Positions 4,587 to 43,531 of a stretch of 64,000 nucleotides of DNA are shown piece after piece (position 1 is the stretch's first letter; every line of letters starts with the position of its first letter). Both the position numbers and the translations under genes were made by a program. The stretch lies in the IMG/VR virus record IMGVR_UViG_3300045988_147522. One strand, given 5' to 3'. Origin of the DNA: a virus. The notes under the pieces are model-generated. The model was not told the origin of the DNA, made no database searches, and worked only from the letters and a program-made list of their open reading frames with translations.

Positions 4587-5297
4587 ATGAAGCAATTTGC
4601 AAAAACAGTGTATGTTAGCCACAAATACGGTGGTGACAAAAATAACCTCAAAGAGGTTGAAGAAATAATTAAAACACAACAAAAGAAACATCCGAATTAT
4701 ATGTTTATTTCACCGTTACATATGTTCAGCTTTCTGTATGACGATATGTCTTATGAAGATGGGCTTGAACTTTGCCTATATCAGCTTGCCGAGTGTGATG
4801 AAATATGGGTAACAGGCGAAAAATGGTACGATTCGACAGGTGTTATTAAGGAAATTGAGTACGCAAACGCACATAAAATTGATGTTTTATTCGTAAAAAA
4901 TGCAGAAGATAATCCGCACAAAGTTGAAGGTTATGATTATGTCAAAGGTTTGATTGATGGAATAAAGACAAACAAAGTTAGTAGCGATAAGACACCTGTA
5001 CCAGTAGCACCAGTTATACATAAATATAACAATGGATGCGAGAACACTAAAAGTGCATACATAAATGAGGACAATATTATTCGTACATATATAGCTCGTA
5101 ATGTTGTTGATCCTTTTGCAGGGAATTTTATGAATATACGTAGTGTGCAGATTCTCACCAAATGTCCTTTCTGCAAATCTGTAAATAAAATCACACTTAA
5201 GGATAGAAGTCCAGTAAGCATACCTTGTAACAATTGTCATAACTTGCTTGACTTTAGTCATCTTATATTTGGTGATATTCTCAGGAAGAATGGGTGA
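4587..5297 (+). CDS. DUF4406 / nucleoside 2-deoxyribosyltransferase-like protein with C-terminal zinc ribbon
   Basis: VYVSHKYGGD...ISPLHMF...LAECDEIWVTG...STGVIKEIEYA pattern. C-terminal CPFC...CNNC. Confidence 0.4.
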   Translation: MKQFAKTVYVSHKYGGDKNNLKEVEEIIKTQQKKHPNYMFISPLHMFSFLYDDMSYEDGLELCLYQLAECDEIWVTGEKWYDSTGVIKEIEYANAHKIDVLFVKNAEDNPHKVEGYDYVKGLIDGIKTNKVSSDKTPVPVAPVIHKYNNGCENTKSAYINEDNIIRTYIARNVVDPFAGNFMNIRSVQILTKCPFCKSVNKITLKDRSPVSIPCNNCHNLLDFSHLIFGDILRKNG

Positions 5298-7400: not shown

Positions 7401-8166
7401 TTGCTATAAGCCCACTTTAAACCGAATAAACTGCGGGGAAGTCCCCATAACCTTAATGGCTACAACATAGCTGGAAACGGCAAGTGTGAATGCGGTATAG
7501 GATTAAATCTGTCAGTCCGATAGGATAGAAACCATAAAAACATTAAGCAAGGGATTACCGAGTGTGCAAGTCACTCTTACGCAACGAAACTCCTTAACAG
7601 GCAATGCTGATGGAGGACGCTCAACGACTATAATTTCGGGGAATTGTTTCTTGCTTATATAAAAAGAGAAAAAGAGGGGCGTAGTAAATAATAAAAGAAA
7701 TTAATGATTATACGGGGTATTTTATTTCCGATACTGGAGAAGTATTTTGCAATTTAGGAAGGGGAAATCGAAATAGAGGAAAAATTATTCCTTTGTATAA
7801 GCTAAAACCTCGCATGACAACGAATGGATATGCTCGCATTTGTGCCAGACAAAATTCTACTGGCAAAAGAAAAGATTTATATATTCATCGACTTGTGGCA
7901 GAGAATTTTATCCCAAATCCTCATCATAAACAATATGTTAATCACAAAAACACTATTCGTAATGATAATCGAGTAGAAAACCTCGAATGGTGTACAGCAA
8001 AAGAAAACACTGAATATACATTACAAGTCAATCATGTTATAAGAAACCCTAACAACGGACAATATATCAGTAATTATACATACAAAGCATAAATTAAGTT
8101 GAAGAAACAATGAGATTGTATAGTCTACTCCCCTAATAAATATCGGGAAACCGAGGGTATAAAAGG
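7401..8166 (+). mobile_element. group I intron in nrdD
   Basis: Exon 1 ends in U. GUGGGU (7395-7400) pairs with GCCCAC (7410-7415), giving P1 with a U.G at the splice site. The last intron base is G (8166). Hairpins GGGG-AAGU-CCCC (7435-7446) and the GNRA hairpin UCGG-GAAA-CCGA (8143-8154). Splicing restores RRTCGYIGT. Confidence 0.75.
7688..8092 (+). CDS. intron-encoded HNH homing endonuclease (NUMOD4-like N-terminus)
   Basis: HNH motif HHKQYVNHKNTIRNDNRVENLEWCTAKEN. The conserved N-terminus EINDYTGYFISDTGEVF lies upstream of the first canonical start (TTG 7793). The frame opens at ATA 7688, 8 nt after GAGGGG. Confidence 0.7.
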   Translation: MIKEINDYTGYFISDTGEVFCNLGRGNRNRGKIIPLYKLKPRMTTNGYARICARQNSTGKRKDLYIHRLVAENFIPNPHHKQYVNHKNTIRNDNRVENLEWCTAKENTEYTLQVNHVIRNPNNGQYISNYTYKA

Positions 8167-8246
8167 ATATAGGAACTAACTTCTGGAATCAAGGAAGAAC
8201 ACAAGAAATCAAAGAAAGATATGTGCACTTGGGTGGTAACGAGTGA
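8167..8246 (+). CDS. nrdD: anaerobic ribonucleotide reductase, exon 2
   Basis: Joined to t7400 it reads (Y)IGTNFWNQGRTQEIKERYVHLGGNE*, a typical NrdD C-terminus. The stop overlaps the nrdG GTG. Confidence 0.75.
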
Positions 8247-8743
8247 ATTACATCAAAATCACTAAACACGATATCGCCAATGGAATCGGAATCAGAGTTG
8301 TACTATGGGTAAGCGGTTGTACCGTTCATTGTTACAACTGTCACAATCCTTCGACTTGGGATTTTACAGCCGGACAACCATTTACTAATGGCACTATGGC
8401 TGAATTACTTGAAGCGTTAAGTCCTGATTATATATCGGGGCTAACGCTCTCAGGTGGGCATCCATTGGAGCAAGTAAATCAACAACAAATATCTAATATT
8501 GTAAAAACGGTCAAGACCAAATTACCAAGCAAAACAATATGGCTATATACAGGTTATACATATGAACAGATATTGAAATCTAAGTTTATTGTAAACAAAA
8601 TCTTACCTTATATAGATATTCTTGTTGACGGTAAATATGATGAGTCGCAAAGAGATATTTCTCTTGCTTGGTGTGGCTCAAGAAACCAAAGGGTAATCAA
8701 AGTTCAAGAAAGTTTGAAATCAGAACAAGTAGTAACACTATAA
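8243..8743 (+). CDS. nrdG: anaerobic RNR activating radical-SAM protein
   Basis: CTVHCYNCHN cluster motif, GGHPL, immediately downstream of nrdD. Confidence 0.9.
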   Translation: MNYIKITKHDIANGIGIRVVLWVSGCTVHCYNCHNPSTWDFTAGQPFTNGTMAELLEALSPDYISGLTLSGGHPLEQVNQQQISNIVKTVKTKLPSKTIWLYTGYTYEQILKSKFIVNKILPYIDILVDGKYDESQRDISLAWCGSRNQRVIKVQESLKSEQVVTL

Positions 8744-8762
8744 GGAGATGATATTTTAGAAT

Positions 8763-9233
8763 ATGGCTACCGCAAATAATTTTCCTATCTCTAAGGAAAA
8801 TATAGGAAAGTATTGTGATACACTAATTGCTCTTAGACATCATTTAGAAATATTGCAACTTTACTCAGAAAGATATTGTGAGCTTAAATCACAATTCAAT
8901 TCATATTATGGGCAAATTGATGATTTATTACATCAAATTTCTTTAGAAAATACAACTGATAGTCAAAAAGCGATCTTGATTGATAAACTGTGTGAAGTAA
9001 AGGCGGAGCAAGCAATAATAAAAGATTTTATGGAAGTGTTTACTCCTATAAAGGAGTGGTATTCTATTCATTATTGTGAACTTGATAGTTTTAAATCAGT
9101 AGTCGATAAAATAATAAAAATCAGAGAAAAACAATCTAAAAGGCACTATGTCCAAAGAACCAATGTTGTGAAAGAGACATTGGGGAGAGAGTCACAAATT
9201 ATTAAAGGAGATGACGAAAATCAAAACAGCTAA
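8763..9233 (+). CDS. hypothetical protein (paralog of next ORF)
   Basis: The C-terminus ...EWYSIHYCELDSFKSVVDKIIKIREKQSKRHYVQRTNVVKETL aligns with the next ORF. Confidence 0.5.
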   Translation: MATANNFPISKENIGKYCDTLIALRHHLEILQLYSERYCELKSQFNSYYGQIDDLLHQISLENTTDSQKAILIDKLCEVKAEQAIIKDFMEVFTPIKEWYSIHYCELDSFKSVVDKIIKIREKQSKRHYVQRTNVVKETLGRESQIIKGDDENQNS

Positions 9234-9594
9234 AGAGTTAGAAGATACAATCAATTTTTTTACACAAACAACAGAAGATTATCAAAACAATACTGAAAAC
9301 GAATCATTACACGACTACGAAACACAAGATATCTTACATAAACTTGAACTTGAAGATGTGTCGTATCACGACACTGCCAAACTTGGAAAAACCCTAATGA
9401 AAGTTAGAGAGAACCGTAGAAAAGCAAAAGATAGTGTAGAACTTAACGCTCCATTAGCAGAATGGATTCAGTCACATTCTGATGTGTTGAAATCATTACA
9501 GAAAGTTCTTGGAGAGACCAGAAAAATTGAGGACAAACAGCGTAGAAGAATGTATGTCCCAAGAACGAAGATTGTCGAGGAGGTAATTCATTGA
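9211..9594 (+). CDS. hypothetical protein (paralog of previous ORF)
   Basis: ...EWIQSHSDVLKSLQKVLGETRKIEDKQRRRMYVPRTKIVEEVI aligns with the previous ORF. Confidence 0.5.
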   Translation: MTKIKTAKELEDTINFFTQTTEDYQNNTENESLHDYETQDILHKLELEDVSYHDTAKLGKTLMKVRENRRKAKDSVELNAPLAEWIQSHSDVLKSLQKVLGETRKIEDKQRRRMYVPRTKIVEEVIH

Positions 9595-9911
9595 TAAATA
9601 CAGGGTGGGCATTTAAGCCTAATGAGAATGAACTTCACGAAGAAAATCTTGCAATACATAAGAAACTTGCACCGAAAGCAAAATTGATTTGGCTGAACTT
9701 TTACACAAAGAAGTATGATGTTACACAAGATGATTTGCAGAATTATATGTGTTACACGCAGAAGGGATATGGTTACGGTAACATTACATACAAGGTGTTA
9801 AGTAATCCGTTCAATTTCACAGAAGATGAACAGGCTCTGATTTGCGATGGTGGCAATCTTTGTTTTGGTTATCGTAAATTGGGCAACTTAATTACGATTT
9901 ATACAGATTAA
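9591..9911 (+). CDS. hypothetical protein
   Basis: TTG start 7 nt after GAGGAGG, tightly packed with neighbours. Confidence 0.5.
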   Translation: MINTGWAFKPNENELHEENLAIHKKLAPKAKLIWLNFYTKKYDVTQDDLQNYMCYTQKGYGYGNITYKVLSNPFNFTEDEQALICDGGNLCFGYRKLGNLITIYTD

Positions 9912-9923
9912 GGAGAATGATAA

Positions 9924-10262
9924 ATGAACATTGTACAAGTAAGACACATACAGGACAAAAACGCAAAAAGATATACATACAAAGTCCCAGATAATGAATC
10001 TCTTAATAAAGGAGATATGGTTCTAACACGAAATGTTAATGGTAAAGAGAGTGTTGCGATTTGTGTTACAGATAGCGAAAACCTTTCGACTAATGCCATT
10101 GATATGATTATGTGTGGTGCTGAAGTGCTGAGTGAAGTTATTGGCGAGTATAAGTTTTATAAATTTGAGACTAATGACGCAATCCACAAGGAAGATATAT
10201 CAGTACACAACAATCCAGCATTACTTATACATGCAACTCCATTGCCAATTAAGGAGGCATAA
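9924..10262 (+). CDS. hypothetical protein
   Basis: SD AAGGAGAA upstream, co-directional array. Confidence 0.5.
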   Translation: MNIVQVRHIQDKNAKRYTYKVPDNESLNKGDMVLTRNVNGKESVAICVTDSENLSTNAIDMIMCGAEVLSEVIGEYKFYKFETNDAIHKEDISVHNNPALLIHATPLPIKEA

Positions 10263-10301
10263 AAATGACAAATAAAACACGAGTTTTACAGGGGTGATGT
10301 A

Positions 10302-10754
10302 ATGCTTTCAAAACCACATTTCGGTTGGACAGATATTACAATTGGCGATTGGGCAGGCAAATTGAGTTATATAGACGATGTTTCTGTAGTTCTACTGAAT
10401 GCCTTCTACAATGTTTTTAGCAATCAAAAACCCGAAGTTGTATGTTTCGATGCCGAAGGTATCAACTATTGGATTGTGTTTGATTTATTTGACACAATTA
10501 TCGTAACCGAAGATGAAAATTGTCAATACAGTGTAAGTCATCAAGATATCAATATTAAAGAATTGTCTCTGGAACTTTGCAACGATATCCACACTAATTT
10601 AGAAGAATGGGCACATTGGACAGCAGAATATGATTATAACGGTTCTGTCGATTCCGATCATTTCAATCAGTATAAGAAGAGATTATGTTATGATGTTTTT
10701 AACCTATTAGACATCTTGAATAACAAAGATGATGTAACTGAGATTGTTTGTTGA
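10302..10754 (+). CDS. hypothetical acidic protein
   Basis: 150 aa with SD AGGGGTGA upstream. Confidence 0.5.
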   Translation: MLSKPHFGWTDITIGDWAGKLSYIDDVSVVLLNAFYNVFSNQKPEVVCFDAEGINYWIVFDLFDTIIVTEDENCQYSVSHQDINIKELSLELCNDIHTNLEEWAHWTAEYDYNGSVDSDHFNQYKKRLCYDVFNLLDILNNKDDVTEIVC

Positions 10755-10773
10755 AGAAGGTGAAAATACAACA

Positions 10774-10977
10774 ATGAAAATCATCAAACAAGGTAAATCT
10801 GAGTTGCAAATCAAACCATCAAAACCAAATACAATATCCTGTTCAGAATGTGGATGTGTATTTCAATATTGCGATTATGACATACATTATGCCACAAGCA
10901 TAAGTCACGACTGGGAGTGCTGGGAGGAATGGCTTGTTTGTCCTTGGTGTAACATAGAAATTTATGGAATTTTTTAA
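10774..10977 (+). CDS. small zinc-ribbon protein, paralog family member 1
   Basis: MKIIKQGK...CSECGCVF...CPWC. Internal Met of the listed ORF, with SD GAAGGTGAA. Confidence 0.5.
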   Translation: MKIIKQGKSELQIKPSKPNTISCSECGCVFQYCDYDIHYATSISHDWECWEEWLVCPWCNIEIYGIF

Positions 10978-11054
10978 TGTGGACATGAAATTCAAGAATA
11001 TTTTTAAAAGAAAGATTTTAATATGTTGCAAATGCAACGAAAGGAAAGGTCGTA

Positions 11055-11237
11055 ATGACACACAAGAGACTTAGAAAGCTTTTACAAGCAACAGGTATAC
11101 AAAGAAACAATGTAGAAGATGTTATTCGCAAATACCGAGAAGATTATTTTTATACAACAAATGAAGATGTTTACAATCGCTATTGTGTGCGTGAACTGTT
11201 TAGTGTGGTAGTTGAATTTGCAAACAGGAGCGAATGA
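11055..11237 (+). CDS. hypothetical protein
   Basis: 60 aa with SD GAAAGGAAAGG upstream. Confidence 0.45.
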   Translation: MTHKRLRKLLQATGIQRNNVEDVIRKYREDYFYTTNEDVYNRYCVRELFSVVVEFANRSE

Positions 11238-11238
11238 A

Positions 11239-11427
11239 ATGATTCAAATTATTAGACAAGGTAATTTAAAAGAACCTGTATTTAGATTTGTTTGTCGCAA
11301 TTGCGGGTGTGTATTTGAAGCCGACAGAGAAAGCTATAAACAATGTTTTACATCATATAATACATTTATTTTTTCGGCAAATTGTCCTTGTTGTAAAACT
11401 AATGTGAGCTATGAAGAATCATTGTAA
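11239..11427 (+). CDS. small zinc-ribbon protein, paralog family member 2
   Basis: MIQIIRQGNLKEPVFRFVCRNCGCVFEAD...CPCC with SD CAGGAG upstream. Confidence 0.55.
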   Translation: MIQIIRQGNLKEPVFRFVCRNCGCVFEADRESYKQCFTSYNTFIFSANCPCCKTNVSYEESL

Positions 11428-11489
11428 CAGATAGGAGATATATGACACAGAAGGAGTATGACAATGATAATAATGGCAAGGAGTATTAA

Positions 11490-11690
11490 ATGATTCAAGT
11501 TCTCAGAGAAGGCGATCTTAAATCACCAATAATTAGATTTAATTGTCTTAGATGTAAGTGTGTTTTTGACGCAGATAAGGATGACTACAAACTGATAGCA
11601 ACTTCAGGTGGCTTAGCATGTATAACAGATTGTCCGCATTGTCACAAAAGAGTGGCTCATATGATGACAACAGATAGGAGATATATATGA
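11490..11690 (+). CDS. small zinc-ribbon protein, paralog family member 3
   Basis: MIQVLREGDLKSPIIRFNCLRCKCVFDAD...CPHC. Confidence 0.55.
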   Translation: MIQVLREGDLKSPIIRFNCLRCKCVFDADKDDYKLIATSGGLACITDCPHCHKRVAHMMTTDRRYI

Positions 11691-12067
11691 TTTACTATTT
11701 AACAGATAGAACTCTTGCAAGAGCAATTAAGCGTTGCAGTAATGAAAATTACAACTACCTTATTGTCCTTAAAGATAACAAAGATTTTGACGACATGTCT
11801 GTTTCGATTCTCGAACAGGCGATTATGAGCGATACATACTGGGGCACTTCGTCATATTTAACCTATGACCATATTTCTTTTCAAACAGGCACAATCACCA
11901 TCTATAAAGATTCGTTAATTACAAACGATTTTAGGGGCGTTTATGACGAAATACTCGTTGACGAATTGGTAGAAAATAGCAAATGGGAAATCCTTGCCAA
12001 GCATACAAATAGTCACGGTTCATATAAGGAAAAGTATAAGTCAAAGGAGGAGTTCAGTTTTGCATAA
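11687..12067 (+). CDS. hypothetical protein
   Basis: 126 aa. The start overlaps the upstream stop. Confidence 0.5.
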   Translation: MIYYLTDRTLARAIKRCSNENYNYLIVLKDNKDFDDMSVSILEQAIMSDTYWGTSSYLTYDHISFQTGTITIYKDSLITNDFRGVYDEILVDELVENSKWEILAKHTNSHGSYKEKYKSKEEFSFA

Positions 12068-12302
12068 GGATATTGATTATGAGTCCTTACTTCGTTTTGT
12101 ACAGGACAACCCTAACGCCGGTATATCACTGACAATATCAGAGAATGAATTTGACCAAGTAATTGAAACTATTATATCGGCATTGATTACCAATGAAACA
12201 CCACCAACACAATTAGTTAGTTATTTGGAATATAGAACTCATCATATCTACATTGAATTTGTCAACGAAGCAACGCTTAAAATAAACACAATTGAGGGGT
12301 GA
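12060..12302 (+). CDS. hypothetical protein
   Basis: TTG 12060 lies 7 nt after AAGGAGGAG. The listed start at 11994 overlaps the previous gene by 74 nt. Confidence 0.45.
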   Translation: MHKDIDYESLLRFVQDNPNAGISLTISENEFDQVIETIISALITNETPPTQLVSYLEYRTHHIYIEFVNEATLKINTIEG

Positions 12303-12306
12303 TAAA

Positions 12307-12657
12307 ATGAAAAGAAAACCTATCCCTCAACCAGTAAGATTTAAAGTATATGAAAAATACAACGGACATTGTGCATATTGTGGTTGTGAACTTGAACTAA
12401 AGGATATGCAAGTTGACCATATTGAAAGTATTTATTGGTATAACGGTGCAAATGATATTGAAAACTACAATCCTGCTTGCAGAATGTGTAATTTTTATAA
12501 ATCAACAATGCCTATTGAAGATTTTAGAGGACAGTTAGGCAAACTCACTTCAAGACTCGAAAAGACTTTTATTTATCGTTTAGCGAAAAAATATGGTTTA
12601 ATTCAGGAAGTTGAAAAGCCTGTGAAATTTTATTTTGAAAAGGAGAACAACCAATGA
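12307..12657 (+). CDS. HNH endonuclease
   Basis: CAYCGCEL...VDHIESI...NYNPACRMCNFYK. ATG 12307 follows SD GAGGGGTGA. Confidence 0.8.
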   Translation: MKRKPIPQPVRFKVYEKYNGHCAYCGCELELKDMQVDHIESIYWYNGANDIENYNPACRMCNFYKSTMPIEDFRGQLGKLTSRLEKTFIYRLAKKYGLIQEVEKPVKFYFEKENNQ

Positions 12658-18172: not shown

Positions 18173-18229
18173 TTCAAATTTTGAATTCAAAAAATGTAGT
18201 GTTTAAGCCAAAAGTAGACACTTCGACTA

Positions 18230-18279
18230 ACTGCCTTCTAAGCAGTAGGTCAGGGGTTCGAGTCCCTTTTGGCGCGCCA
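18230..18279 (+). other. 3' two-thirds of a tRNA-Arg(UCU) gene, probable attP core
   Basis: Anticodon stem ACTGC/GCAGT with loop CTTCTAA (UCU), variable AGGTC, T arm AGGGG-TTCGAGT-CCCTT, acceptor 3' strand TTGGCGC, then G and CCA. The upstream 30 nt do not form a D arm or a full acceptor stem. Confidence 0.55.
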
Positions 18280-34930: not shown

Positions 34931-37900
34931 TTACAAGTGCCTATTATTAACAGTATAAGACATAAGTTTTTTGATAGTGTTATTCATAATCTTTTCGGAC
35001 TCCTTGTGCAGTGCATTAACAGTAGCCTGAGTAGCATCACCTTGTACATTGATGTGAATTGTAGGGGAAACAACAGTTGATTTATTGTTCACGACATTCG
35101 GTGTTATTTCAGAACCAAACTTCTGTGCAAAATAATCAGTTGGAGCTGATGCAAATTCAAACAATTCATTTGTCATCGCTTTGCTAAATACAGGATTGCC
35201 TTGTGGTAAGATTGTATATCTGCCATTACCAAGAGATGTAGGAATAAGTTCTGAACCGATACCCTCTTCGTCAACAATAGACAAACCACCTTTGGCTGAT
35301 TTTGTACCAGAAGCATACGCTTTCATTTTAGACCATAAAGAACCTGCTGGTAGCGCTCTTCCGCCATACCAATCTTTACTAATCCGACTTATGAAATATG
35401 TTTCAGCGTCCTCTTTGTTCGTTTGGTTGGTTTTATACACTTTGCCGTTATAGGTAATTGTATACCCATGACCTGTTATACTCGATGGTTGTATTTTAAC
35501 TGAATCAATCTTTGCTTTAGTGGTCTGTGCAGAATTACCCAACTCGTCAATTTTTTGCTTCAAACTATCAATTCGAGAAGTGTAGTTATCAATGCTTCCT
35601 GTCACATTAGCAATAGCAGAGTCTACATCGTAGATACGAGATTGTAGTGTATTCATTAAATCCATAACATTGAGCTGCGCAGTGCCATATTCATAAAGAG
35701 CACTTTGAGCCGACTGCCACATATGGTTAAACTCAGCCTCTGTGGTTGTAGTGTAATTTTGACAATACCACAACAGGTTGTTATACAATGTACCATTGTC
35801 ATTGTCAATCATATTACATGCAGCTCTGTGCAAAGATACCTCGTTGTTTAAGAAATCTTGAATAGTTTGGATTTCATCATCATAATGCTTATCTGTCTCT
35901 TCTTTCAGTTTATCTAAAGCTTCTTTGCGAGTATCATACTGATAGTCTGATAGATAATCATATAAGTCTTCTCTGGACTCAACCAAATCATCAACATTTT
36001 CTTTGTGAGCCTTTTTACCTGCGGAACTATCGTCCAGTCCAGTAATAGCAGCAGACAATGCGTTTGAAGCAACAGCATTTTCTTTCTCTTTGAGTTGTTT
36101 GTTGAAATCAGCTTCTTCTTTTTCTTTGTCAAGAAGTTCTTGTTTCTTTTCAATAAGTTCGTCAATTTTATCTTTGCGTTCTTGTAGTGCATCTATTTCG
36201 TCCTGCTTAGTCTGTTTAATGTACTTTTCTGTCCAATCGACTAAACTTTCAATCGCAGACAACGCATCCTCATAACCACTTTTAGTATCTTCTAACGCTT
36301 CTTTTTTCTTTTCTAAAGCGTCTTTACTTTTCTCAAGAGCTTTTTCTTCCTTTTCTATCTGCTTTTTGTACTTCTCCGAAGCAGAAGTAGCTTCGTCTGT
36401 AGAAGTAGACAAGTCACTTAATGAAGAAGCATACGAATCAATCAAAGCGGCTTTCTTACGCCAAGCAGACTCTGCCTGAATAACCGTTTGTTGATATAGC
36501 GTACCTGTGCCTTGTTCAGCGTCTTTAGCAGCAGCAGTTGCATATGCTTCTTTCCATTTTTTGTCCGCCAAATTAGTAGCCGACTTTGCAGCGCTGTCTT
36601 GACTCTTTTGAAGATATGCTAAAGCCTGTGTCTCATTTTTAAGTTTGCCTACTTCGTCAATTGCTTCTTGTAAGTAAGAAGCTTTCAGTCTTTCTAATTG
36701 AGCTTTGGCTAAATCTCTAAATTTTTCAGAAGTTAAATCAAGTTCGCCTTGTTCATTAACAAGTAAATTTATATAAGAGTCGTCTAACGACAAAACCGCT
36801 TCCAGAGTATCAAAAGATAATTTTCCGTTTTCGTTATATTCGTTAATAGCAGTTTTGACAGCCTTAAAAGCCGATAACACAGAAGTAACTTTTTTTGTGG
36901 CGTCTTCTGTAGATACTTTAAAAGTAACCTTATCTTCTGCTTCTTTTTTTATGTCTTTAACAGCTTTTTTTATGTCCTCTAAAGAACTAATATTATCTTT
37001 TTTGTTATACAACTTAGAGATCGTATTAAAATCCAGACTTTGCAAATACTCTTTGGTTTTGTCTTTTTGTTCTTTGGATACTTTATTTATCAGATCTGTA
37101 TTTTTTTTGGTGTATTCTTTTACTTTGTCTTGCCATTCTGATAATGTAAAGTCTGCCGTATCGGTATCGCAAGAAATCTGATAAACTATTTGTTTATCGT
37201 CATTTGACAATCCATCTATCCACTCGTTGAATCCTTGAATTTCTTTTTGAGCAAGAGATATAGCTCCGTTTGTGCCCAAATAGTGCATAGTTTTTGCAGT
37301 ATGATCTGCTGTGTCGCCAATATCAGCAATAAGGTTTTTTATCTTAACGCCATCAATCTCGATGCCTTTAGTGTCTAATTTTAATAAATCTTCGTTAGTC
37401 CATCCCTCGCCAGCTTCGTCAATAAGACTCCAAATGTATTCGTACACGGTGTCCGCATCCAACAACACTGCTCCGTCAGGCGTTTGTAGCATTGGAGAAA
37501 AAGCGATTTCCACACCATCAAAGGTATCCGATCCAGCAAATACAGTAGAAATTGTGCCTTTCATGTCTTTTACAGTAGAACCCCATGACTCTATCGCAGT
37601 TTTGTACTTTTCTAAATTAGAATCTGTCCATTCTAAGACTTCACGATTGTTGGTGTCAATATTGCCAAATACTGTTTGTAAAGGATTAACACCCATGTTC
37701 GCTGCTTCCTGTTGTATCTCTTCCAAACCAGTGCCATCAGCAAACTGTTCCTTGATACTACGAACAAAATTATTCGTATCAACTCCGCCCAGTTCAACTG
37801 GTATTGCAACAGGTATAATACCATTAATCGTTGATGTATTTTTAGCAGCAGATTTAGTATTATGGGTTTGTTTCGTTGCACGGTTGACAAGATTAGCTAT

Positions 37901-39475
37901 TGCGTCATCTATGTTTACATTATCAGCGACCTCGACATCTGAAAACAAAAGTTTTACAAACAATGCTTTTGTATCTGTATCTATACCGTCAACGCTTGAT
38001 AATACTTTTTTGATCTGATTACTCAAATCTTGATAATTTGATATATCAATCTTACCATTTTTAATATCGTCTATTTTAGACTGCACACTGCTTAATGTGT
38101 CAGCTAATTTTGGATTATCAAACGCTTTAATTATATCAGATACGGTTTGTTTAACTTTTTCTAAATTATCTGCTGTACTCGCTTCAGGATCAACAATCTT
38201 ACTGTAGAAGTTATCCCATGTGGCACTATTTATATATTGTTCAATAAGAACTTGACTTTTACTATCTAATGTGCTAAACTGCTCATTAGTATAGTGAATA
38301 TACGCATCAAGTACAGGCTTAAAACTATTGTTTACCAAATCGTTAATTTGACGCTTTAAAACGGATTGCTGGTTTTTGACTGCCGATATTATGGTAGATA
38401 AGTCTTTTTCGTCTATCTCATCATAAAGATAAGACATACCATACTCTGTACCGCCACCAGTCTTAACAAGATCTTCAATACCAGCACCTTTTAACGCTTT
38501 ACTTAAAGCAGGAGTTAATTGAGTATCTTTTTTTTTATTAAGATTCTGCACAAATTGGTCGAGTGCTTTAATTTGGGTGATGTAAGTTTCATCATCTGCA
38601 CCCCACATACCTTGATTAGTCCAGATGTTTTCTAACGCTTTGCCAATACTATCCTGCTCTTTAGACACGATAGTTTCGTAATAAGCATTCTTTTCATTAG
38701 TCATTGCCTTGTTAAGAGCTTCAACATTGTTTTTACACTCTAAGATAGCGTCATTCTGGGCTGAGTAACCTTTTACCAAGCCCGGATACATCTGTGCAAT
38801 CTCATTAGAAAGTTCAATATATCTCTCATACTGAGTAGAGGTTAAAGAGATATTTTCTCCATAAGAATTAACACCATCAGCTAATTCGTAATATTCATTT
38901 TTGATTTTGTTTACAGATGCTGAATGAGATGTGTAGGCATCTTTTTTGTCGTTAATCTCTGTTGTGATTTTTTCAAGGTCTGATAGGTTATTTTCAGCTC
39001 TGTTGATGTAATTATCAAGTGCTTCAAAACCAAAAGAAATTGCAGTCATTACACCTTGTATAATAAGCATATTACCAATACCTGCGGCAATATTCTTTAA
39101 CGAAGAGCCTAATGAAGATAGCTTGCCTTTAATGCCTGAAAAAGCACCAGACATTGATTGAGCATTTTTACTTAAGAGATTCTCTGATTCGGCATAATCT
39201 GTGTTGTATTGTATGCCTTTTAATAATTCTTGGTTTAAATCTTTAGTAGCTTCTGCAAATTTTGACTGCTTGAGTATATCTGCTTCATTAGCAGTTACTG
39301 CATTTTTTAAAACCTTGACATCTAAGCTTTCAGCGTAGGTTTTATATTCTTTATATTTGTCAATAGCCTTGTCAATATCTTGCGTTGCTCTGGCTTTGGC
39401 AGCCGTAGTAAACCATCCGATGTGTTTACCATTATCACTGTCTAAGTATGTTTGGAGTATCTTTCTCTTAGACAC
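34931..39475 (-). CDS. tape measure protein, distal part (1514 aa)
   Basis: Gly-zipper hydrophobic segment, >1000 aa of coiled coil, and a TMP-type C-terminus (GGLSIVDEEGIGSELIP...GRYTILPQGNPVFS). GTG start without an SD. Confidence 0.75.
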   Translation of the reverse strand: MSKRKILQTYLDSDNGKHIGWFTTAAKARATQDIDKAIDKYKEYKTYAESLDVKVLKNAVTANEADILKQSKFAEATKDLNQELLKGIQYNTDYAESENLLSKNAQSMSGAFSGIKGKLSSLGSSLKNIAAGIGNMLIIQGVMTAISFGFEALDNYINRAENNLSDLEKITTEINDKKDAYTSHSASVNKIKNEYYELADGVNSYGENISLTSTQYERYIELSNEIAQMYPGLVKGYSAQNDAILECKNNVEALNKAMTNEKNAYYETIVSKEQDSIGKALENIWTNQGMWGADDETYITQIKALDQFVQNLNKKKDTQLTPALSKALKGAGIEDLVKTGGGTEYGMSYLYDEIDEKDLSTIISAVKNQQSVLKRQINDLVNNSFKPVLDAYIHYTNEQFSTLDSKSQVLIEQYINSATWDNFYSKIVDPEASTADNLEKVKQTVSDIIKAFDNPKLADTLSSVQSKIDDIKNGKIDISNYQDLSNQIKKVLSSVDGIDTDTKALFVKLLFSDVEVADNVNIDDAIANLVNRATKQTHNTKSAAKNTSTINGIIPVAIPVELGGVDTNNFVRSIKEQFADGTGLEEIQQEAANMGVNPLQTVFGNIDTNNREVLEWTDSNLEKYKTAIESWGSTVKDMKGTISTVFAGSDTFDGVEIAFSPMLQTPDGAVLLDADTVYEYIWSLIDEAGEGWTNEDLLKLDTKGIEIDGVKIKNLIADIGDTADHTAKTMHYLGTNGAISLAQKEIQGFNEWIDGLSNDDKQIVYQISCDTDTADFTLSEWQDKVKEYTKKNTDLINKVSKEQKDKTKEYLQSLDFNTISKLYNKKDNISSLEDIKKAVKDIKKEAEDKVTFKVSTEDATKKVTSVLSAFKAVKTAINEYNENGKLSFDTLEAVLSLDDSYINLLVNEQGELDLTSEKFRDLAKAQLERLKASYLQEAIDEVGKLKNETQALAYLQKSQDSAAKSATNLADKKWKEAYATAAAKDAEQGTGTLYQQTVIQAESAWRKKAALIDSYASSLSDLSTSTDEATSASEKYKKQIEKEEKALEKSKDALEKKKEALEDTKSGYEDALSAIESLVDWTEKYIKQTKQDEIDALQERKDKIDELIEKKQELLDKEKEEADFNKQLKEKENAVASNALSAAITGLDDSSAGKKAHKENVDDLVESREDLYDYLSDYQYDTRKEALDKLKEETDKHYDDEIQTIQDFLNNEVSLHRAACNMIDNDNGTLYNNLLWYCQNYTTTTEAEFNHMWQSAQSALYEYGTAQLNVMDLMNTLQSRIYDVDSAIANVTGSIDNYTSRIDSLKQKIDELGNSAQTTKAKIDSVKIQPSSITGHGYTITYNGKVYKTNQTNKEDAETYFISRISKDWYGGRALPAGSLWSKMKAYASGTKSAKGGLSIVDEEGIGSELIPTSLGNGRYTILPQGNPVFSKAMTNELFEFASAPTDYFAQKFGSEITPNVVNNKSTVVSPTIHINVQGDATQATVNALHKESEKIMNNTIKKLMSYTVNNRHL

Positions 39476-39501
39476 AATATATTAAATAAGAAGGTGTTTT
39501 A

Positions 39502-39966
39502 ATGCTTGAAGTAGCAATATGTCCAAAATGTGGAGAAGTTAATTACCCTGCATTGGAATCATATAAGAAATGTTATTGTTGTTGGGTTGGTTTTCTTAAA
39601 AGACCTCGTAAATTGCTTTTTGAAGTTACAGAACAATTACAGCGAGAGCACTTTGAACGAGATGTTTTGGGAAGCAAAGAGGCTGAATATCTTTTTTGGT
39701 ATGAAAAATTCCTTAAAGACTGTCCTGAATATGATAATAGTCTATATGAAGAACACTTAAATAACAACAGACGCTGGGATTTAGTAACAAAACAACGACT
39801 TAATAAATTATCTTCCAAGCCAACTGTTAAATGTCCATATTGCGGTTCTTTGCGTACTACTAAAATTTCAACAAGTAGTAGAGTAGCTTCATCTCTCACA
39901 CTCGGCTTAGCAAGCAATAAGATAGGCAAGAACTATCAATGTAATGATTGCAAAGCCACCTTCTAA
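39502..39966 (+). CDS. double zinc-ribbon protein on the opposite strand between the tape-measure halves
   Basis: CPKCG...CYCC and CPYCGS...CNDC. SD GAAGGTG, with its own terminator. Confidence 0.55.
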   Translation: MLEVAICPKCGEVNYPALESYKKCYCCWVGFLKRPRKLLFEVTEQLQREHFERDVLGSKEAEYLFWYEKFLKDCPEYDNSLYEEHLNNNRRWDLVTKQRLNKLSSKPTVKCPYCGSLRTTKISTSSRVASSLTLGLASNKIGKNYQCNDCKATF

Positions 39967-39976
39967 TTAATAATTT

Positions 39977-40005
39977 GAGCAGTGTTTTATAATACTGCTC
40001 TTTTT
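39977..40005 (+). terminator. intrinsic terminator
   Basis: GAGCAGT-gttttataat-ACTGCTC followed by T5. Confidence 0.65.
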
Positions 40006-40007
40006 GT

Positions 40008-40036
40008 TTGTTTATAAAACTTTTCTTTTATATGAT
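40008..40036 (+). promoter_or_regulatory. promoter P2 (TTGTTT-17-TATGAT) sharing the P1 downstream element
   Basis: TATGATAGTCACTGTTG (40031-40047) versus TATAATAGTCACTGTTG (18101-18117), 16 of 17 identical. Confidence 0.45.
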
Positions 40037-40042
40037 AGTCAC

Positions 40043-40185
40043 TGTTGTCTCAGTGTCGATTTGGACTATACAATTTAAGGTCATTTCATATCGTTGAAAC
40101 TACCTCAAGAGGCTTATAGTCTCTGAACCTCCGCTTATGCGGCTGGATGCTGATTATGGCTTATTACGGCGGTTAGCTTTTGGCA
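40043..40185 (+). ncRNA. candidate small RNA driven by P2
   Basis: No credible ORF. CACTG/CAGTG 5' hairpin, a long nested hairpin at 40063-40123 (GGACTATA/TATAGTCT closing stem), CCGC-TTAT-GCGG, and a weak stem followed by TTTT near 40181. Confidence 0.3.
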
Positions 40186-40327
40186 TACGCCGAACAATAA
40201 CTTGTTTCTGACTTTCGTCTCCATATGGCGTATTGTTCATCACCATTTCCCAGAACGGCTATCATTCCGTTTGCAGTTTAACCTCTCATTTAACGACATA
40301 CATCACCATTTCTTGATTATAGCACGA

Positions 40328-43300
40328 TTACGCTACTTTCTCAAAATAGATAGGCATACTCCTAAAACCCGTCAATTTGGGTTTACCCTTGTCGCTTCCC
40401 ATTAATCCAGACAAAACGCCAGATATAGAAAGAGTACCAATGTTTGCTCCAAGATGAGAGAGCAATTCATTAGCTTGTGTTAAAAATCCTAACAATCCAG
40501 AGCCAGTATCAACTACGCCTTTAACAATATCACTTGATACTGTTGTTGTTGATAATTCCTGCCACTGTGCCTGAAATTGTTTTACTTTACCTTCGATACT
40601 ATCTATGTACTTTTCGTGTTCCTTTAATGCAGAACCATCTGAGTTCTTGGATGTATCTAATGAATTGATTGCTGTACCAATGTTTTGAATTACAGCAGAA
40701 GCGTAGTTAGACCTGTTCTTACCGGCGATAAGCTCAAGTAATGACGCTTTATTTTTATCAGCCAATTCATCCCATACGAGAGCGATATCTTTAAGAATAT
40801 CATAAGTGCTACGGAATGAACCATTGTCCATAATATCCACGCCTGAAGACGAAGAAGTTTTTGTTAAAGCTTTGATTTTGTCTTGAAGCTCAGAAGTTGT
40901 TGTGCACATTCCTTCCGTATCTTCTCCAGCCTTTTTAAGCTCCACCGACATACCTCTTAATCTCATAGCAAGCACTTTAAGTGCATTACCTGATTCATCT
41001 GCACTCTGTGTAACTTCGGTCATTGCGGTCAGCAACGCAATGGTTTCATCAAGGCTATTACCCGCAACAGCCATAGATGCGGCTGAGTTCTTCAAGCCTT
41101 CGCCTAAATCACCTGACGAGACAGCGTAATTATTACTCACCTCATTAAGTTTATCGACAATGCTTTGTGCCGATGAAGCTTCCATATTAAAAGCTTTTAA
41201 TATGGAAATAATGTCACTACTTGCTTCACCAACACCATCCAAATCGTCACCGACATTAGCATATATGGTTGCTACCTCTGCCAATTGCGTTGAGTCAGGT
41301 ATATCATAACCCATACGAGCAAAATCAGCGGTACTTGTAACAAAGTCACTAATAGTAGTACCCAGCTCTTTTGCTTTGCCAGTTGCCGTAGTTAAATATT
41401 TGTCATATGTCGAATCGGTGCTGTCTGTAACTTTCTTAAGCTCCACCATAGCAGTGTCTAACTCGGTTACAATGTGTATCATGTCTTGAACAGTAGCAAT
41501 AGCTTTATTCATAGACGAAGTGATAAAATTCCACGAACCATATTTAAGATAGTTCTTTGCAAGTGTGCGTAGAGCGGTTGCACCCATCAATCCAGCAGAC
41601 TCGGCAGAAGTCTTAATATTTGCAAACTGTGACTGGAAAGATTTAAGCTGTTGGCTACTGACTTTTGCAGCATCTGATGTTTTATTTAAAATGGTTTCAA
41701 TTTGTCCAGCATATTCTTGAGCAGCTTTAGGATTGCTACTCGCAAATTTCATAACCTGCAAACGCAGTGTTTCTACTGCTTTGCTGCTTGCGATTGTGCT
41801 TTTACTTGCGGTTTCTAAACTCTGACTCCATTTAGTTTCAAATTTATGTAAAGCAGCATTATTTCCAAGCTTACCAGTTACTTGATTTGTAGCGGTTATT
41901 TCTTCGTTAAGTAATTGAAATTTTTGGAGGTAGTCACTAAGTTCGTTTTTAAAATTGTCAGGAATATTGTGTCCGTTAAGTAAAGATGTTGTTTGCTGAC
42001 GCAAAGCTCGCATATTAGCCAAATATTTATCCAACTGACTATTATTAATAACCTCGCCTGAGCCATTTAAAATATCATAATGATATCCTTGCGCTTTGCC
42101 AGTTGCGTTGGCAGTATTGAGCTTTTCTTTAATATTGTTAATCCTACTTTGAAGCTTGTCTATAAAAGAATCATCTGCACCATTCCATACACCATTTTCA
42201 AGTAGTTTTTCACATTCTTGGCGTATATCTTCCAAGTCCGCTTTTGCTTCTTGTAATTGTCCTTCGGGGATAAACGCTACATTTTTACTGCGGTTTTGAA
42301 TGTCATCATATACTGTATCAATATCACTCCGAATCTTTTCTATTTCAGAACGATTGTTGTTTACAGTATTAGAGATAGAGGTCGATAACGCTTGTGCCTC
42401 TGTCGCAAAAGACGAAAGAAGTTCTTTTGGTACATCTTCTCCATTATTCCACATATCACCAATAATATCTTTTTTAGATATGAGGGTTGTAAGTTGAGAC
42501 CATGCAGTACGATATTCAGACACAGTTAGCAAGCTTTTGTTTTGCTCTTGCGTTAATTGATTAGTTGTTTGTGATACAAGAGCTTCTGCGTCTTGAAACT
42601 CCTTTAAGGCAGCAGTGCTTTCTGTAATAACAGCCAATTGACTTTGTAACTCGGAAGCGGATATTTCATTTGTGCGACCAGTAGGAGATACTACACGACT
42701 CCCTGTATCAATAAGTTCCTGTAATTCTGCTTTAGTTTTGTCTATAGACTCAGCACTAATTACACTATTTGAATTATGACTCTCAAGGATAGCATATAAG
42801 GATTGGGCAGTTTGAATAATATTATTAATTTCATTAACACTCTGTCTGCCTTCTGTATTGATTGCAGTTACATCTTGCAATAATTTTACAACCTTTTGGC
42901 TCAAATTGTCTAAATCAGCGACAGGAATTTCCAACCCTTGAGATAATGACTGTTCTAACTGTCTTCCTTCAGAAGCCAAACTTCTTGATACCGTAAGAAA
43001 TTTCTCAATATCTTGTGTATTTAAAAACTGATATCCTTGTTTTTGAAGGTTTAAACCGCCAATAATGCTTTGGATTCTGCTCTGAATCTGAGATAGCTCT
43101 TTTGCAGTTTGCTGATAATTTGTCACATCGGCTGTCGTCCGATTGCTATTATTATTCTTGCTATATTGACTACGAGATGCTTTGACTGTATTTCCAGTAA
43201 CACCAACCGAAATACTACCAATTGCTTTTTCAATGTCTTTCTTCAAAGACTTCATCGCGTTACTACAGTCAAACTTTTTAATTGTAACTACTGGAATTTT

Positions 43301-43531
43301 TGGAGGGTTTTTAAGAGATTTTTCAAATAGTGTCTGAACGCTCTTTTTTAATTGGTCTTTGGCTTGCTTGCTCTGATCGGCTTCTATATTATATATTTTA
43401 ATACCGTCAATAGCTTTAGCTAATTCTCCAACACTCTTTTTGAAAATTTTCTTGTCTTCGTTTCTTGTTCCAGCGATCACTTGGACGGAAATACCAAAAA
43501 TATCATTTTCATTTGCCACACATACCACCAC
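40328..43531 (-). CDS. tape measure protein, proximal part (1067 aa) with TP901-type core
   Basis: AKELGTTISDFVTSTADFARMGYD...SSGDLGEGLKNSAASMAVAGNSLDETIALLTAMTEV...NALKVLAMRLRG, then a Gly-rich hydrophobic tail. Confidence 0.8.
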   Translation of the reverse strand: MVVCVANENDIFGISVQVIAGTRNEDKKIFKKSVGELAKAIDGIKIYNIEADQSKQAKDQLKKSVQTLFEKSLKNPPKIPVVTIKKFDCSNAMKSLKKDIEKAIGSISVGVTGNTVKASRSQYSKNNNSNRTTADVTNYQQTAKELSQIQSRIQSIIGGLNLQKQGYQFLNTQDIEKFLTVSRSLASEGRQLEQSLSQGLEIPVADLDNLSQKVVKLLQDVTAINTEGRQSVNEINNIIQTAQSLYAILESHNSNSVISAESIDKTKAELQELIDTGSRVVSPTGRTNEISASELQSQLAVITESTAALKEFQDAEALVSQTTNQLTQEQNKSLLTVSEYRTAWSQLTTLISKKDIIGDMWNNGEDVPKELLSSFATEAQALSTSISNTVNNNRSEIEKIRSDIDTVYDDIQNRSKNVAFIPEGQLQEAKADLEDIRQECEKLLENGVWNGADDSFIDKLQSRINNIKEKLNTANATGKAQGYHYDILNGSGEVINNSQLDKYLANMRALRQQTTSLLNGHNIPDNFKNELSDYLQKFQLLNEEITATNQVTGKLGNNAALHKFETKWSQSLETASKSTIASSKAVETLRLQVMKFASSNPKAAQEYAGQIETILNKTSDAAKVSSQQLKSFQSQFANIKTSAESAGLMGATALRTLAKNYLKYGSWNFITSSMNKAIATVQDMIHIVTELDTAMVELKKVTDSTDSTYDKYLTTATGKAKELGTTISDFVTSTADFARMGYDIPDSTQLAEVATIYANVGDDLDGVGEASSDIISILKAFNMEASSAQSIVDKLNEVSNNYAVSSGDLGEGLKNSAASMAVAGNSLDETIALLTAMTEVTQSADESGNALKVLAMRLRGMSVELKKAGEDTEGMCTTTSELQDKIKALTKTSSSSGVDIMDNGSFRSTYDILKDIALVWDELADKNKASLLELIAGKNRSNYASAVIQNIGTAINSLDTSKNSDGSALKEHEKYIDSIEGKVKQFQAQWQELSTTTVSSDIVKGVVDTGSGLLGFLTQANELLSHLGANIGTLSISGVLSGLMGSDKGKPKLTGFRSMPIYFEKVA

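What the first reader, a model, noticed from the sequence alone, without database searches (positions are those of the whole stretch)
39476..40327. Tape measure split into 1067-aa and 1514-aa ORFs by an 852-nt opposite-strand cassette
ORF 40328-43531 carries the TP901-type tape-measure core and stops about 20 aa after a Gly-rich hydrophobic segment.
ORF 34931-39475 continues with a second Gly-zipper, more than 1000 aa of coiled coil and a typical TMP C-terminus. It begins at a GTG with no SD, two codons after an in-frame TAA.
Between the two lies + strand material. It comprises an SD-preceded 154-aa double zinc-ribbon ORF, a hairpin-T5 terminator, a further + strand promoter, and about 290 nt of hairpin-rich, ORF-poor sequence. 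That sequence holds a 12-nt direct repeat CATCACCATTTC (40238-40249 and 40301-40312).
SPbeta-type phages, as I recall, encode one tape measure of more than 2000 aa. This looks like an insertion into that gene. How the distal half is expressed, and whether tail length is set by one chain or two, is open. I found no group I P1 pairing and no intein motifs.
Basis: partly seen in the sequence, partly recalled or inferred. Interest (0 to 1): 0.65.

Follow-up and report, generated by a model that had tools for sequence, protein, structure and literature searches.

The report
Group I intron splitting a tape-measure gene
The 852-nt "cassette" that splits this gut-phage tape-measure gene is a self-splicing-type (group I) intron carrying a small zinc-ribbon gene on the opposite strand, so the two reading frames most likely make one protein of about 2570 aa.

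Summary
Two minus-strand ORFs (40328-43531, 34931-39475) are collinear halves of one SPbeta/YomI-type tape measure. Between them lie a plus-strand 154-aa double zinc-ribbon ORF, a terminator and about 300 nt of structured non-coding DNA.

I found P1 to P9, including the P3/P7 pseudoknot. Across 25 related copies, 98% of cells pair and 17 pairs carry compensatory changes, against 3 in shuffles.

Comparison of about 9 lineages places the splice sites after U40343 and after G39461. This gives an 882-nt intron and the product ...SMPIYF|ILQTYLD..., 2572 aa.

Group I introns in prophage tape-measure genes are already known from the Bacillus cereus group. Three things are unusual here:
- The cargo gene is antisense, has its own terminator and shows no nuclease fold. 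It abuts the 3' splice site in every relative, alongside up to about 6.6 kb of other cargo.
- The pair at the cleavage site is not a conserved U.G wobble.
- No intron-less allele was found.

Splicing itself is inferred, not shown.

The parts
40343..43531 (-). Tape-measure exon 1 (1063 codons, ends ...RSMPIYF). The annotated ORF runs 4 codons (EKVA) further into the intron, to TAA at 40330-40328.
   Evidence: Pfam PF10145 and phrog_4211 positions 507-944. 5' splice site from P1 and comparison of lineages.
39461..40342 (-). Group I intron, 882 nt (preferred splice sites: after U40343 and after G39461).
   Evidence: Fold with covariation. A G directly precedes the conserved exon-2 block in all lineages. 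Spliced ORF of 2572 aa has no stop.
40033..40349 (-). Ribozyme core. Helices, 5' strand/3' strand:
- P1 40349-43/40312-06
- P1 extension hairpin 40336-30/40325-19
- P2 40304-02/40297-95
- P3 40287-81/40113-07
- Extra hairpin 40270-67/40258-55
- P4 40253-50/40146-43
- P5 40246-42/40160-56
- P5 extension hairpins: 40219-10 (GAAA loop), 40206-193, and 40191-168 (UAUGC..GCUAA receptor-like motif)
- P6 40142-39/40134-31
- P7 40121-15/40070-64
- P8 40106-095/40088-77
- P9 40055-51/40044-40
   Evidence: the count of structure pairs on A6: 78 pairs, 98.1% of cells paired, 17 pairs changed on both sides against 3.0 in shuffles (0/500), slid controls 0-5. G.U pairs fix the strand as minus.
40301..40312 (-). 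Direct-repeat copy 1 (GAAAUGGUGAUG on the minus strand). Its first 7 nt are the internal guide sequence that pairs with the exon-1 end.
40238..40249 (-). Direct-repeat copy 2: J4/5 (GAA), the P5 5' strand (AUGGU) and the start of the P5 extension.
39502..39966 (+). Antisense cargo gene of 154 aa: N-terminal zinc ribbon, helical hairpin, then a C-terminal zinc ribbon with the conserved loop ISTSSRVASSLTLGLASNKIGK. SD at 39489-39497.
39977..40005 (+). Intrinsic terminator of the antisense gene. It is unidirectional: on the tape-measure strand the hairpin is followed by AAAUUAUU, not a U run.
34931..39460 (-). Tape-measure exon 2 (1509 codons, starts ILQTYLDSDNGK). The 5 codons GTG-S-K-R-K of the annotated ORF (39475-39461) are intron.
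   Evidence: phrog_4211 positions 2087-2504. Among relatives, sequence conservation starts exactly at AUACUCC.

Best explanation
Window 40342-39461 (minus strand) is a group I intron inside a single SPbeta/YomI-type tape-measure gene.

Proposed mechanism:
- Late transcription reads through the whole unit.
- The first ~310 nt fold into the ribozyme (P1-P9 with the P3/P7 pseudoknot).
- The guide sequence GAAAUGG pairs with the exon end CUAUUUU.
- Guanosine-initiated cleavage after U40343 and exon ligation after the terminal G39461 join ...SMPIYF to ILQTYLD....
- The result is one tape measure of about 2572 aa, which sets tail length as a single chain.

The ~570 nt between P9 and the 3' splice site hold an independent, opposite-strand transcription unit: SD, a 154-aa double zinc-ribbon gene and a one-way terminator. 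This is intron cargo of the 'moron' kind, not a recognisable homing endonuclease.

Shown: the fold with its covariation, the strand, collinearity of the two halves, the conserved terminal G and the open spliced frame.
Inferred: that splicing happens, the exact splice sites, and the role of the cargo gene.
For: (1) Both ORFs match one 2625-position tape-measure profile in order and map collinearly into SPbeta yomI. The gene neighbourhood in relatives carries YomU/V/W/X Pfam families.

(2) The group I fold was built by hand and tested on 25 copies from three sequence lineages. 98.1% of cells pair, and 17 pairs changed on both sides against 3.0+/-1.5 in shuffles and 0-5 in slid controls. P1, P1 extension, P5, P6 and P8 all covary; P3 and P7 are invariant.

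(3) P1 pairs exon with intron and covaries:
- window: CUAUUUU/GAAAUGG
- L004 and L097: CUAUAUC/GAUAUGG
- L017: CUAUACC/GGUAUGG
- L100 (read by eye): CUUAUGUC/GAUAUAGG
.

(4) In every lineage a G directly precedes the conserved exon-2 block. The preceding triplet is AAG, AUG, UUG or ACG, so different 'codons' always end in G. The junction is in frame even though intron lengths fall in all three classes mod 3.

(5) There is no SD and no ATG for the distal ORF.

(6) Sister introns exist in the same gene family.
- Relatives carry a 434- or 1481-nt insertion at window 41129/41134 that starts after U and ends in G. The window itself is the exact empty allele for it.
- Other relatives are interrupted at two further sites.

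(7) Group I introns at three sites in prophage tape-measure genes are documented (PMC2504315).

(8) The plus-strand terminator is one-way.
Against: - Rfam's group I model gives no hit, even at E<=1. It also misses the window's nrdD intron and the relatives' insertion whose ends are fixed by the empty allele.
- The pair at the proposed cleavage site is U.G in the window but C-G in most relatives and U-A in one. A conserved U.G is the rule for group I introns (my knowledge).
- I found no P10 or conserved P9.0 pairing to specify the 3' splice site.
- An extra hairpin sits between J3/4 and P4, and I did not assign a subgroup.
- No intron-less allele of this site was found in IMG/VR, JGI metagenomes or the 5.8-billion protein set.
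- No RNA or protein data were available.
- An alternative splice-site pair (after U40330 and G39475) is also in frame in the window.
Confidence: 0.8

Rival explanations
1. Same intron, but spliced at the sites I first proposed: after U40330 (an invariant U.G pair closing the hairpin GUAGCGU/GUGCUAU) and after G39475. This gives an 855-nt intron and the junction ...FEKVA-L-SKRKILQ..., 2581 aa.
For: The U40330.G40325 pair is invariant in all 25 copies, and the 7-bp helix covaries. The junction is in frame in the window.
Against: - The homologous 3' site is out of frame or lacks a G in L017, L002-type, L003-type and L100. Other lineages would need a different G each time.
- The P1 loop would be only 4 nt.
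- The exon would pair over 14 bp.
Confidence: 0.12
2. The intron is a decayed, non-splicing remnant, or splices too poorly to matter. The tape measure is then made as two polypeptides, with the distal one starting at GTG 39475.
For: - The cleavage-site pair is non-wobble in relatives.
- There is no P10.
- A large convergent antisense unit sits inside.
- No Rfam hit.
- The two-ORF arrangement is fixed in all ~70 related contigs.
Against: - Every core helix is kept by compensatory change across lineages whose tape measures are only about 45% identical.
- The terminal G is kept in all lineages.
- The distal ORF has no SD and its nominal start codon differs between lineages.
- Continuous homologues exist: P0024/25 and yomI.
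Confidence: 0.06
3. A plus-strand mobile cassette (small IS/MITE-like or 'moron' insertion) with a structured 3' UTR or ncRNA, unrelated to splicing.
For: The ORF has its own SD and terminator. It has weak zinc-ribbon hits to IS1595/IS1-type N-terminal domains, all below their cut-offs.
Against: - The structure reads on the minus strand. Many conserved G.U pairs would be A.C on the plus strand.
- The first helix pairs with tape-measure exon sequence.
- There is no transposase and no nuclease fold.
Confidence: 0.02

Closest known systems
Group I introns in tape-measure genes of Bacillus cereus-group prophages (TMP-IVS1, 2, 3; Tourasse and Kolsto 2008, PMC2504315)
   Same: - Self-splicing-type introns interrupt a prophage tape-measure gene.
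- Several alternative insertion sites occur in one gene family.
- Presence or absence varies between related phages.
- Some copies lack a complete homing endonuclease gene.
- Guide sequences are adapted to each site.
   Different: - Those introns are IA1/IA2 class. This one has no P7.1/P7.2 between P3 and P8, and it has a P5 extension with a GAAA loop and a receptor-like motif.
- The cargo here is an opposite-strand zinc-ribbon gene with its own terminator.
- The hosts here are gut Ruminococcus-type bacteria.
Classical phage group I introns with sense-strand homing endonuclease genes (T4 td, nrdB and nrdD; SPO1 DNA polymerase; SPbeta bnrdE/F). From my knowledge; some are named in PMC3706429 and PMC4299906.
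   Same: - Core architecture.
- A stop codon soon after the 5' splice site.
- An ORF placed in a peripheral loop.
- The window itself holds such an intron in nrdD, with an HNH-like ORF.
   Different: - The ORF is antisense and lies 3' of P9.
- It has no LAGLIDADG, GIY-YIG, HNH, His-Cys or PD-(D/E)xK signature or fold.
- The cleavage-site pair is not a fixed U.G.
Antisense homing-endonuclease genes in eukaryotic group I introns (e.g. I-DirII in a Didymium rDNA intron). From memory, not checked here.
   Same: A protein gene is encoded on the strand opposite to the ribozyme and expressed from its own signals.
   Different: Those are nuclear rDNA introns with recognisable His-Cys box endonucleases. 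This is a bacterial virus, and the protein has no nuclease features.
Phage 'morons': promoter-gene-terminator units inserted between late genes (concept of Hendrix and colleagues; from memory).
   Same: - A small accessory gene with its own SD and terminator sits in the late structural operon.
- In relatives L004 and L017 it has canonical TTGACA-17-TAATAT and TTGACA-17-TATCAT promoters.
   Different: It sits inside an essential gene, made harmless by the surrounding intron, rather than between genes.

Membership tests
Group I intron | P1 helix between the 5' exon end and an internal guide sequence | tested here: met
   7 bp, 40349-43 with 40312-06. 100% paired in 25 copies, with 3 pairs changed on both sides including exon bases.
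Group I intron | Conserved U.G wobble at the cleavage site | tested here: inconclusive
   The window has U40343.G40312. Among 25 copies the pair is C-G in 15, U.G in 9 and U-A in 1. An invariant U.G lies 13 nt downstream, in the P1 extension.
Group I intron | Terminal G (omega G) at the 3' splice site | tested here: met
   G39461. A G at the homologous place precedes the conserved exon-2 block in every lineage, in four different triplets.
Group I intron | P3-P7 pseudoknot with P8 between P3' and P7', and a P7 of the (C)AGACUA / UAGUC type | tested here: met
   P3 and P7 are 7 bp each, 100% paired but invariant. P8 is 12 bp with 4 compensatory pairs and a paired deletion. The resemblance of the P7 sequence to Tetrahymena is from memory.
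Group I intron | P4-P5-P6 domain with A-rich J4/5 | tested here: met
   P4 CUGG/CCAG, J4/5 GAA, P5 AUGGU/GCCAT (2 compensatory pairs), P6 CCGC/GCGG (1 compensatory pair). An extra 4-bp covarying hairpin between J3/4 and P4 makes the labelling of this domain uncertain.
Group I intron | P10 / P9.0 pairing that specifies the 3' splice site | tested here: not met
   By inspection, exon 2 (AUACUCC) has no complement next to the guide sequence, and the bases before the terminal G vary between lineages.
Group I intron | Match to the curated covariance model (Rfam RF00028) | tested here: not met
   No hit at E<=1 or at gathering score. The model also misses two other group I-like introns in this data set.
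Group I intron | Guanosine-dependent self-splicing; exact excision seen in RNA or as an empty allele | not testable with these tools
   No RNA data. No empty allele of this site was found. An empty allele is shown only for the sister intron at 41129/41134.
Homing endonuclease (for the 154-aa ORF) | LAGLIDADG, GIY-YIG, HNH, His-Cys box, PD-(D/E)xK or EDxHD catalytic domain | tested here: not met
   - Pfam, NCBIfam, PHROGs and PADLOC gave only generic zinc-ribbon hits.
- The AlphaFold model has pLDDT 74.8.
- Foldseek against PDB found nothing at E<=0.001.
- Against BFVD, the only hit is one uncharacterised phage zinc-ribbon protein.
SPbeta YomI-type tape measure | A single chain of more than 2000 aa with a PhageMin_Tail core followed by a long C-terminal part | tested here: met
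   The spliced product is 2572 aa. phrog_4211 matches collinearly. tblastn to yomI is collinear.

The most novel reading that the evidence does not exclude
An old group I intron fixed at one site of SPbeta-like gut-phage tape-measure genes serves as a cargo bay. It always keeps an antisense zinc-ribbon gene whose promoter overlaps the 3' splice site. In relatives it also accumulates further independently transcribed accessory genes on either strand: membrane proteins, an M78 peptidase, a Bro-N/ANT antirepressor and an Endonuclease_NS_2 protein. These bring its length to about 2.4, 3.3 and 6.6 kb, all in the middle of an essential late gene. It also works with a non-wobble cleavage-site pair. 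The zinc-ribbon protein would then be either a new kind of intron mobility or maintenance factor, or a prophage-expressed conversion gene.
Probability: 0.4. Interest if true: 0.75.

Novelty: new variant of a known kind. Interest (0 to 1): 0.55.

Why it matters
For annotation: about 70 public gut-phage contigs carry this gene as two 'hypothetical' ORFs. They should be joined into one tape measure, which changes any tail-length inference.

For biology:
- An intron may let a phage park independently expressed accessory genes inside an essential structural gene. That would extend the 'moron' idea.
- A bacterial group I intron would have cargo that is antisense and not a known endonuclease.
- The natural U.G / C-G / U-A variation at the cleavage-site pair, in near-identical introns, is a ready-made test of how much that wobble matters in vivo.

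Tried and rejected
- **Rfam scans** gave no intron hit. I judge this uninformative, because the model also misses other introns here.
- **DNA search of cultured phages**, near and distant modes: nothing.
- **My first splice-site model** (U40330/G39475) was abandoned after it failed in relatives.
- **'The RNA is more conserved than the ORF'** was rejected as an argument. Exon 1 is just as conserved; a mosaic boundary lies inside the ORF at about 39850.
- **Intron-less allele searches** found nothing.
  - Viral contigs gave 3 chance hits and then 0.
  - Metagenomes gave 0. That pattern assumed the first splice model, so it could not have found a Model-B empty site.
  - The protein search found no spanning close homologue.
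- **L096** from the metagenome scan is a chance match.
- **Alternative pairing UACGCC/GGCGUA** competes with the receptor hairpin. Both covary, and this is unresolved.
- **Promoter for the window's antisense ORF:** none above chance. The minus-strand TTGAGA-17-TATAAT at 40344-40316 is not conserved in L004, so I treat it as a by-product of the P1 region.
- **Structure searches of the ORF** gave no function.

Full report
**What is there.**
- The minus strand carries ORF 40328-43531 (1067 aa) and ORF 34931-39475 (1514 aa, starting at GTG). An in-frame TAA lies two codons upstream of the GTG, and there is no SD.
- ORF1 holds Pfam PhageMin_Tail (aa 719-937, E 1e-25).
- Both ORFs match the same PHROG tape-measure profile in order. 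ORF1 matches phrog_4211 positions 507-944 and ORF2 matches positions 2087-2504 of 2625.
- tblastn places both collinearly inside SPbeta yomI.
- Between them, on the plus strand, lie a 154-aa ORF (39502-39966) with an SD, two zinc ribbons and a hairpin-T-run terminator at 39977-40000.

**Relatives.** The ORF has a handful of close homologues. Their contigs, plus about 70 IMG/VR and human-gut metagenome contigs found by DNA pattern or protein, all show the same layout: tape-measure part 1, opposite-strand ORF, tape-measure part 2. This sits inside an SPbeta-like structural module with Pfam YomU, YomV, YomW and YomX. No cultured phage matches at the DNA level.

**Host.** The host is probably Ruminococcus bromii or a relative. 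R. bromii ATCC 27255 and two contigs with bacterial housekeeping genes carry a truncated piece of this very region.

**The non-coding 300 nt is a group I ribozyme on the tape-measure strand.**
- Reading the minus strand shows UCAGAGACUAUAA ... UUGUAUAGUCC, which is a P7 of the Tetrahymena type (my recollection). P3' and a 12-bp P8 lie between the two halves, P3 followed by UAAA lies upstream, and a P4-P5-P6 domain and P9 complete the fold.
- Two diverged same-site copies, L004/L097 and L017, come from phages whose tape measures are about 45% identical. They supply compensatory changes.
- On an alignment of 25 distinct copies the full model has 78 pairs. 98.1% of cells pair, and 17 pairs changed on both sides. 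Shuffles give 3.0+/-1.5 (0 of 500 reach 17) and slid controls give 0-5 (an earlier version is).
- P1, its extension hairpin, the extra hairpin, P5, a P5-extension hairpin, P6 and P8 all covary. P3, P4 and P7 never vary, so they say nothing either way.
- The many conserved G.U pairs fix the strand as minus.
- The P5 extension holds a GAAA tetraloop hairpin and a hairpin with UAUGC...GCUAA, which resembles the 11-nt tetraloop receptor (resemblance from memory).
- There is no P7.1/P7.2, so this is not the IA1/IA2 type. I did not assign a subgroup.
- A 4-bp covarying hairpin between J3/4 and P4 is unusual. It is shared with the window's nrdD intron.

**Splice sites.**
- I first placed them after U40330 and G39475, which is in frame in the window.
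- Relatives refute that as a general rule. L017, the L002 and L003 types and L100 have no in-frame G at the homologous place.
- A second exon-intron helix resolves this. Exon CUAUUUU (40349-40343) pairs with GAAAUGG (40312-40306).
- This helix covaries with exon changes:
  - L004 and L097: CUAUAUC/GAUAUGG
  - L017: CUAUACC/GGUAUGG
  - L100 (read by eye): CUUAUGUC/GAUAUAGG
.
- At the other end, every lineage has a G directly before the conserved exon block AUACUCC (UUCCAA in L017). The preceding triplet is AAG, AUG, UUG or ACG.
- Sequence similarity among close relatives begins exactly there.
- Joining at these points is in frame in all lineages, although intron lengths fall in all three classes mod 3.
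- For the window the intron is 40342-39461, 882 nt. The product reads ...RSMPIYF|ILQTYLDSDNGK..., 2572 aa with no stop. This is close to the 2625-position family profile.
- My former P1 is then a hairpin extending P1.
Copy 1 is the guide sequence. Copy 2 is J4/5 plus the P5 strand.

**What does not fit.**
- The pair at the proposed cleavage site is U.G in the window but C-G in 15 and U-A in 1 of 25 copies. A conserved wobble is expected there.
- I found no P10 or P9.0.
- Rfam's model does not score the region. It also misses the nrdD intron and the relatives' sister intron.
- No intron-less allele of this site was found.
- Splicing is therefore inferred.

**Supporting context.**
- Relatives L002, L003 and L052 carry another insertion at window 41129/41134: 434 nt without an ORF, or 1481 nt with a 325-aa ORF that weakly hits a homing-endonuclease model. 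It begins after U, ends in G and has a P7 with P7.1/P7.2-like hairpins.
- The window is its exact empty allele.
- Other relatives' distal ORFs break off at ...QYERYIEL| and ...NLNKKK|, which are two more sites that are empty in the window.
- Group I introns at three sites of Bacillus cereus-group prophage tape-measure genes are published (PMC2504315).

**The cargo gene.**
- The model (pLDDT 74.8) shows two zinc ribbons joined by a helical hairpin.
- There is no nuclease family or fold.
- A profile search finds 555 proteins that share mainly the C-terminal ribbon.
- Full-length relatives sit in the same place in more distant phages, always antisense and abutting the start of the distal tape-measure half. 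Variable further genes lie between the ribozyme and this ORF:
  - L004 and L017: membrane proteins, in introns of about 2.4 and 2.1 kb
  - L097: an M78 peptidase
  - L100: a Bro-N/ANT protein, about 3.3 kb
  - L098: about nine genes, about 6.6 kb
.
- L098 and L100 have P7-type motifs right after the part-1 stop. I did not model those cores.
- In L004 and L017 the ORF has TTGACA-17-TAATAT and TTGACA-17-TATCAT promoters overlapping the 3' splice site. The window copy has no convincing promoter.
- I read the ORF as moron-like cargo (about 50%). A mobility factor (about 20%) and a splicing or regulatory factor (about 10%) are alternatives.

**Verdict.** The thing is a group I intron, a known kind in a known host gene, with an unusual antisense cargo and some atypical features.

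Noticed in passing
window 7400-8250 (+): A second group I-type intron lies in nrdD (ORF 5294-7420, Pfam NRDD/Gly_radical), just after the RRTCGF glycyl-radical motif. It has P3-UAAACUGC-GGGGAAGUCCCC at 7421-7447, AACGACUAUAA at 7623-7633 and UUGUAUAGUC at 8117-8126. An internal ORF at about 7785-8092 has HNH-like motifs (by eye). Rfam does not detect it.
   Followed up: partly
window 41129-41134 (-); L002 11655-12090; L052 3141-4560: The window is the exact empty allele (GAGGTGAGT|AATAATTAC) of another tape-measure intron. In relatives that intron is 434 nt without an ORF, or 1481 nt with a 325-aa ORF that weakly hits a homing-endonuclease model.
   Followed up: yes
window ~38811 and ~38500 (-): Relatives' distal tape-measure ORFs stop early after ...QYERYIEL (then NFDLN*) and after ...NLN(K/E)KK (then ILN*). 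This suggests two more intron sites that are empty in the window.
   Followed up: no
L005 9460-10665; L006 9168-10644; L007 (R. bromii ATCC 27255, NZ_NNSR01000039): The bacterial chromosome keeps only window 38811-40031 (or up to 40279). That is the intact zinc-ribbon ORF, a 227-aa tape-measure piece bounded by two intron sites, and a 5'-truncated ribozyme. It lies beside a DrmD/DpdE-like SNF2 helicase (PADLOC E 4e-127) and a RES-domain protein. Both ORFs are intact, and why is unexplained.
   Followed up: partly
L098 5710-12369; L100 5868-9163; L097 3961-6470: In distant relatives the interval between the two tape-measure halves is 2.5-6.6 kb and holds genes on both strands: M78 peptidase, Bro-N/ANT, Endonuclease_NS_2+SH3, DUF2513 and DUF723. 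The zinc-ribbon ORF always comes last. Whether each interval is removed as one intron is unknown.
   Followed up: partly
window 39850 (mosaic boundary); 37000-39850: Exon 1, the ribozyme and the ORF's C-terminal 45 codons are 95-100% identical among close relatives. The ORF's N-terminal two thirds and exon 2 drop to 60-75% or do not align. So a recombination boundary lies inside the antisense ORF.
   Followed up: partly
window 40316-40344 (-): A near-consensus TTGAGA-17(TG)-TATAAT lies on the tape-measure strand across the 5' splice site (11/12). It is not conserved in L004, so it is probably a by-product of the P1 region. A transcript starting there could not splice.
   Followed up: partly
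L102 (Enterocloster phage CB457P1, OP172753.1) 6755-12453: A cultured phage has its tape-measure homologue in two CDS with a 157-aa CDS between them, whereas sister phages (PMBT24, CB473P3) match in one piece. This is a candidate intron in an isolate that could be tested at the bench.
   Followed up: no
window 18207-18274 (+): Rfam calls a tRNA just above its gathering score (32.5 against 29 bits), but ARAGORN finds no tRNA in the window.
   Followed up: no
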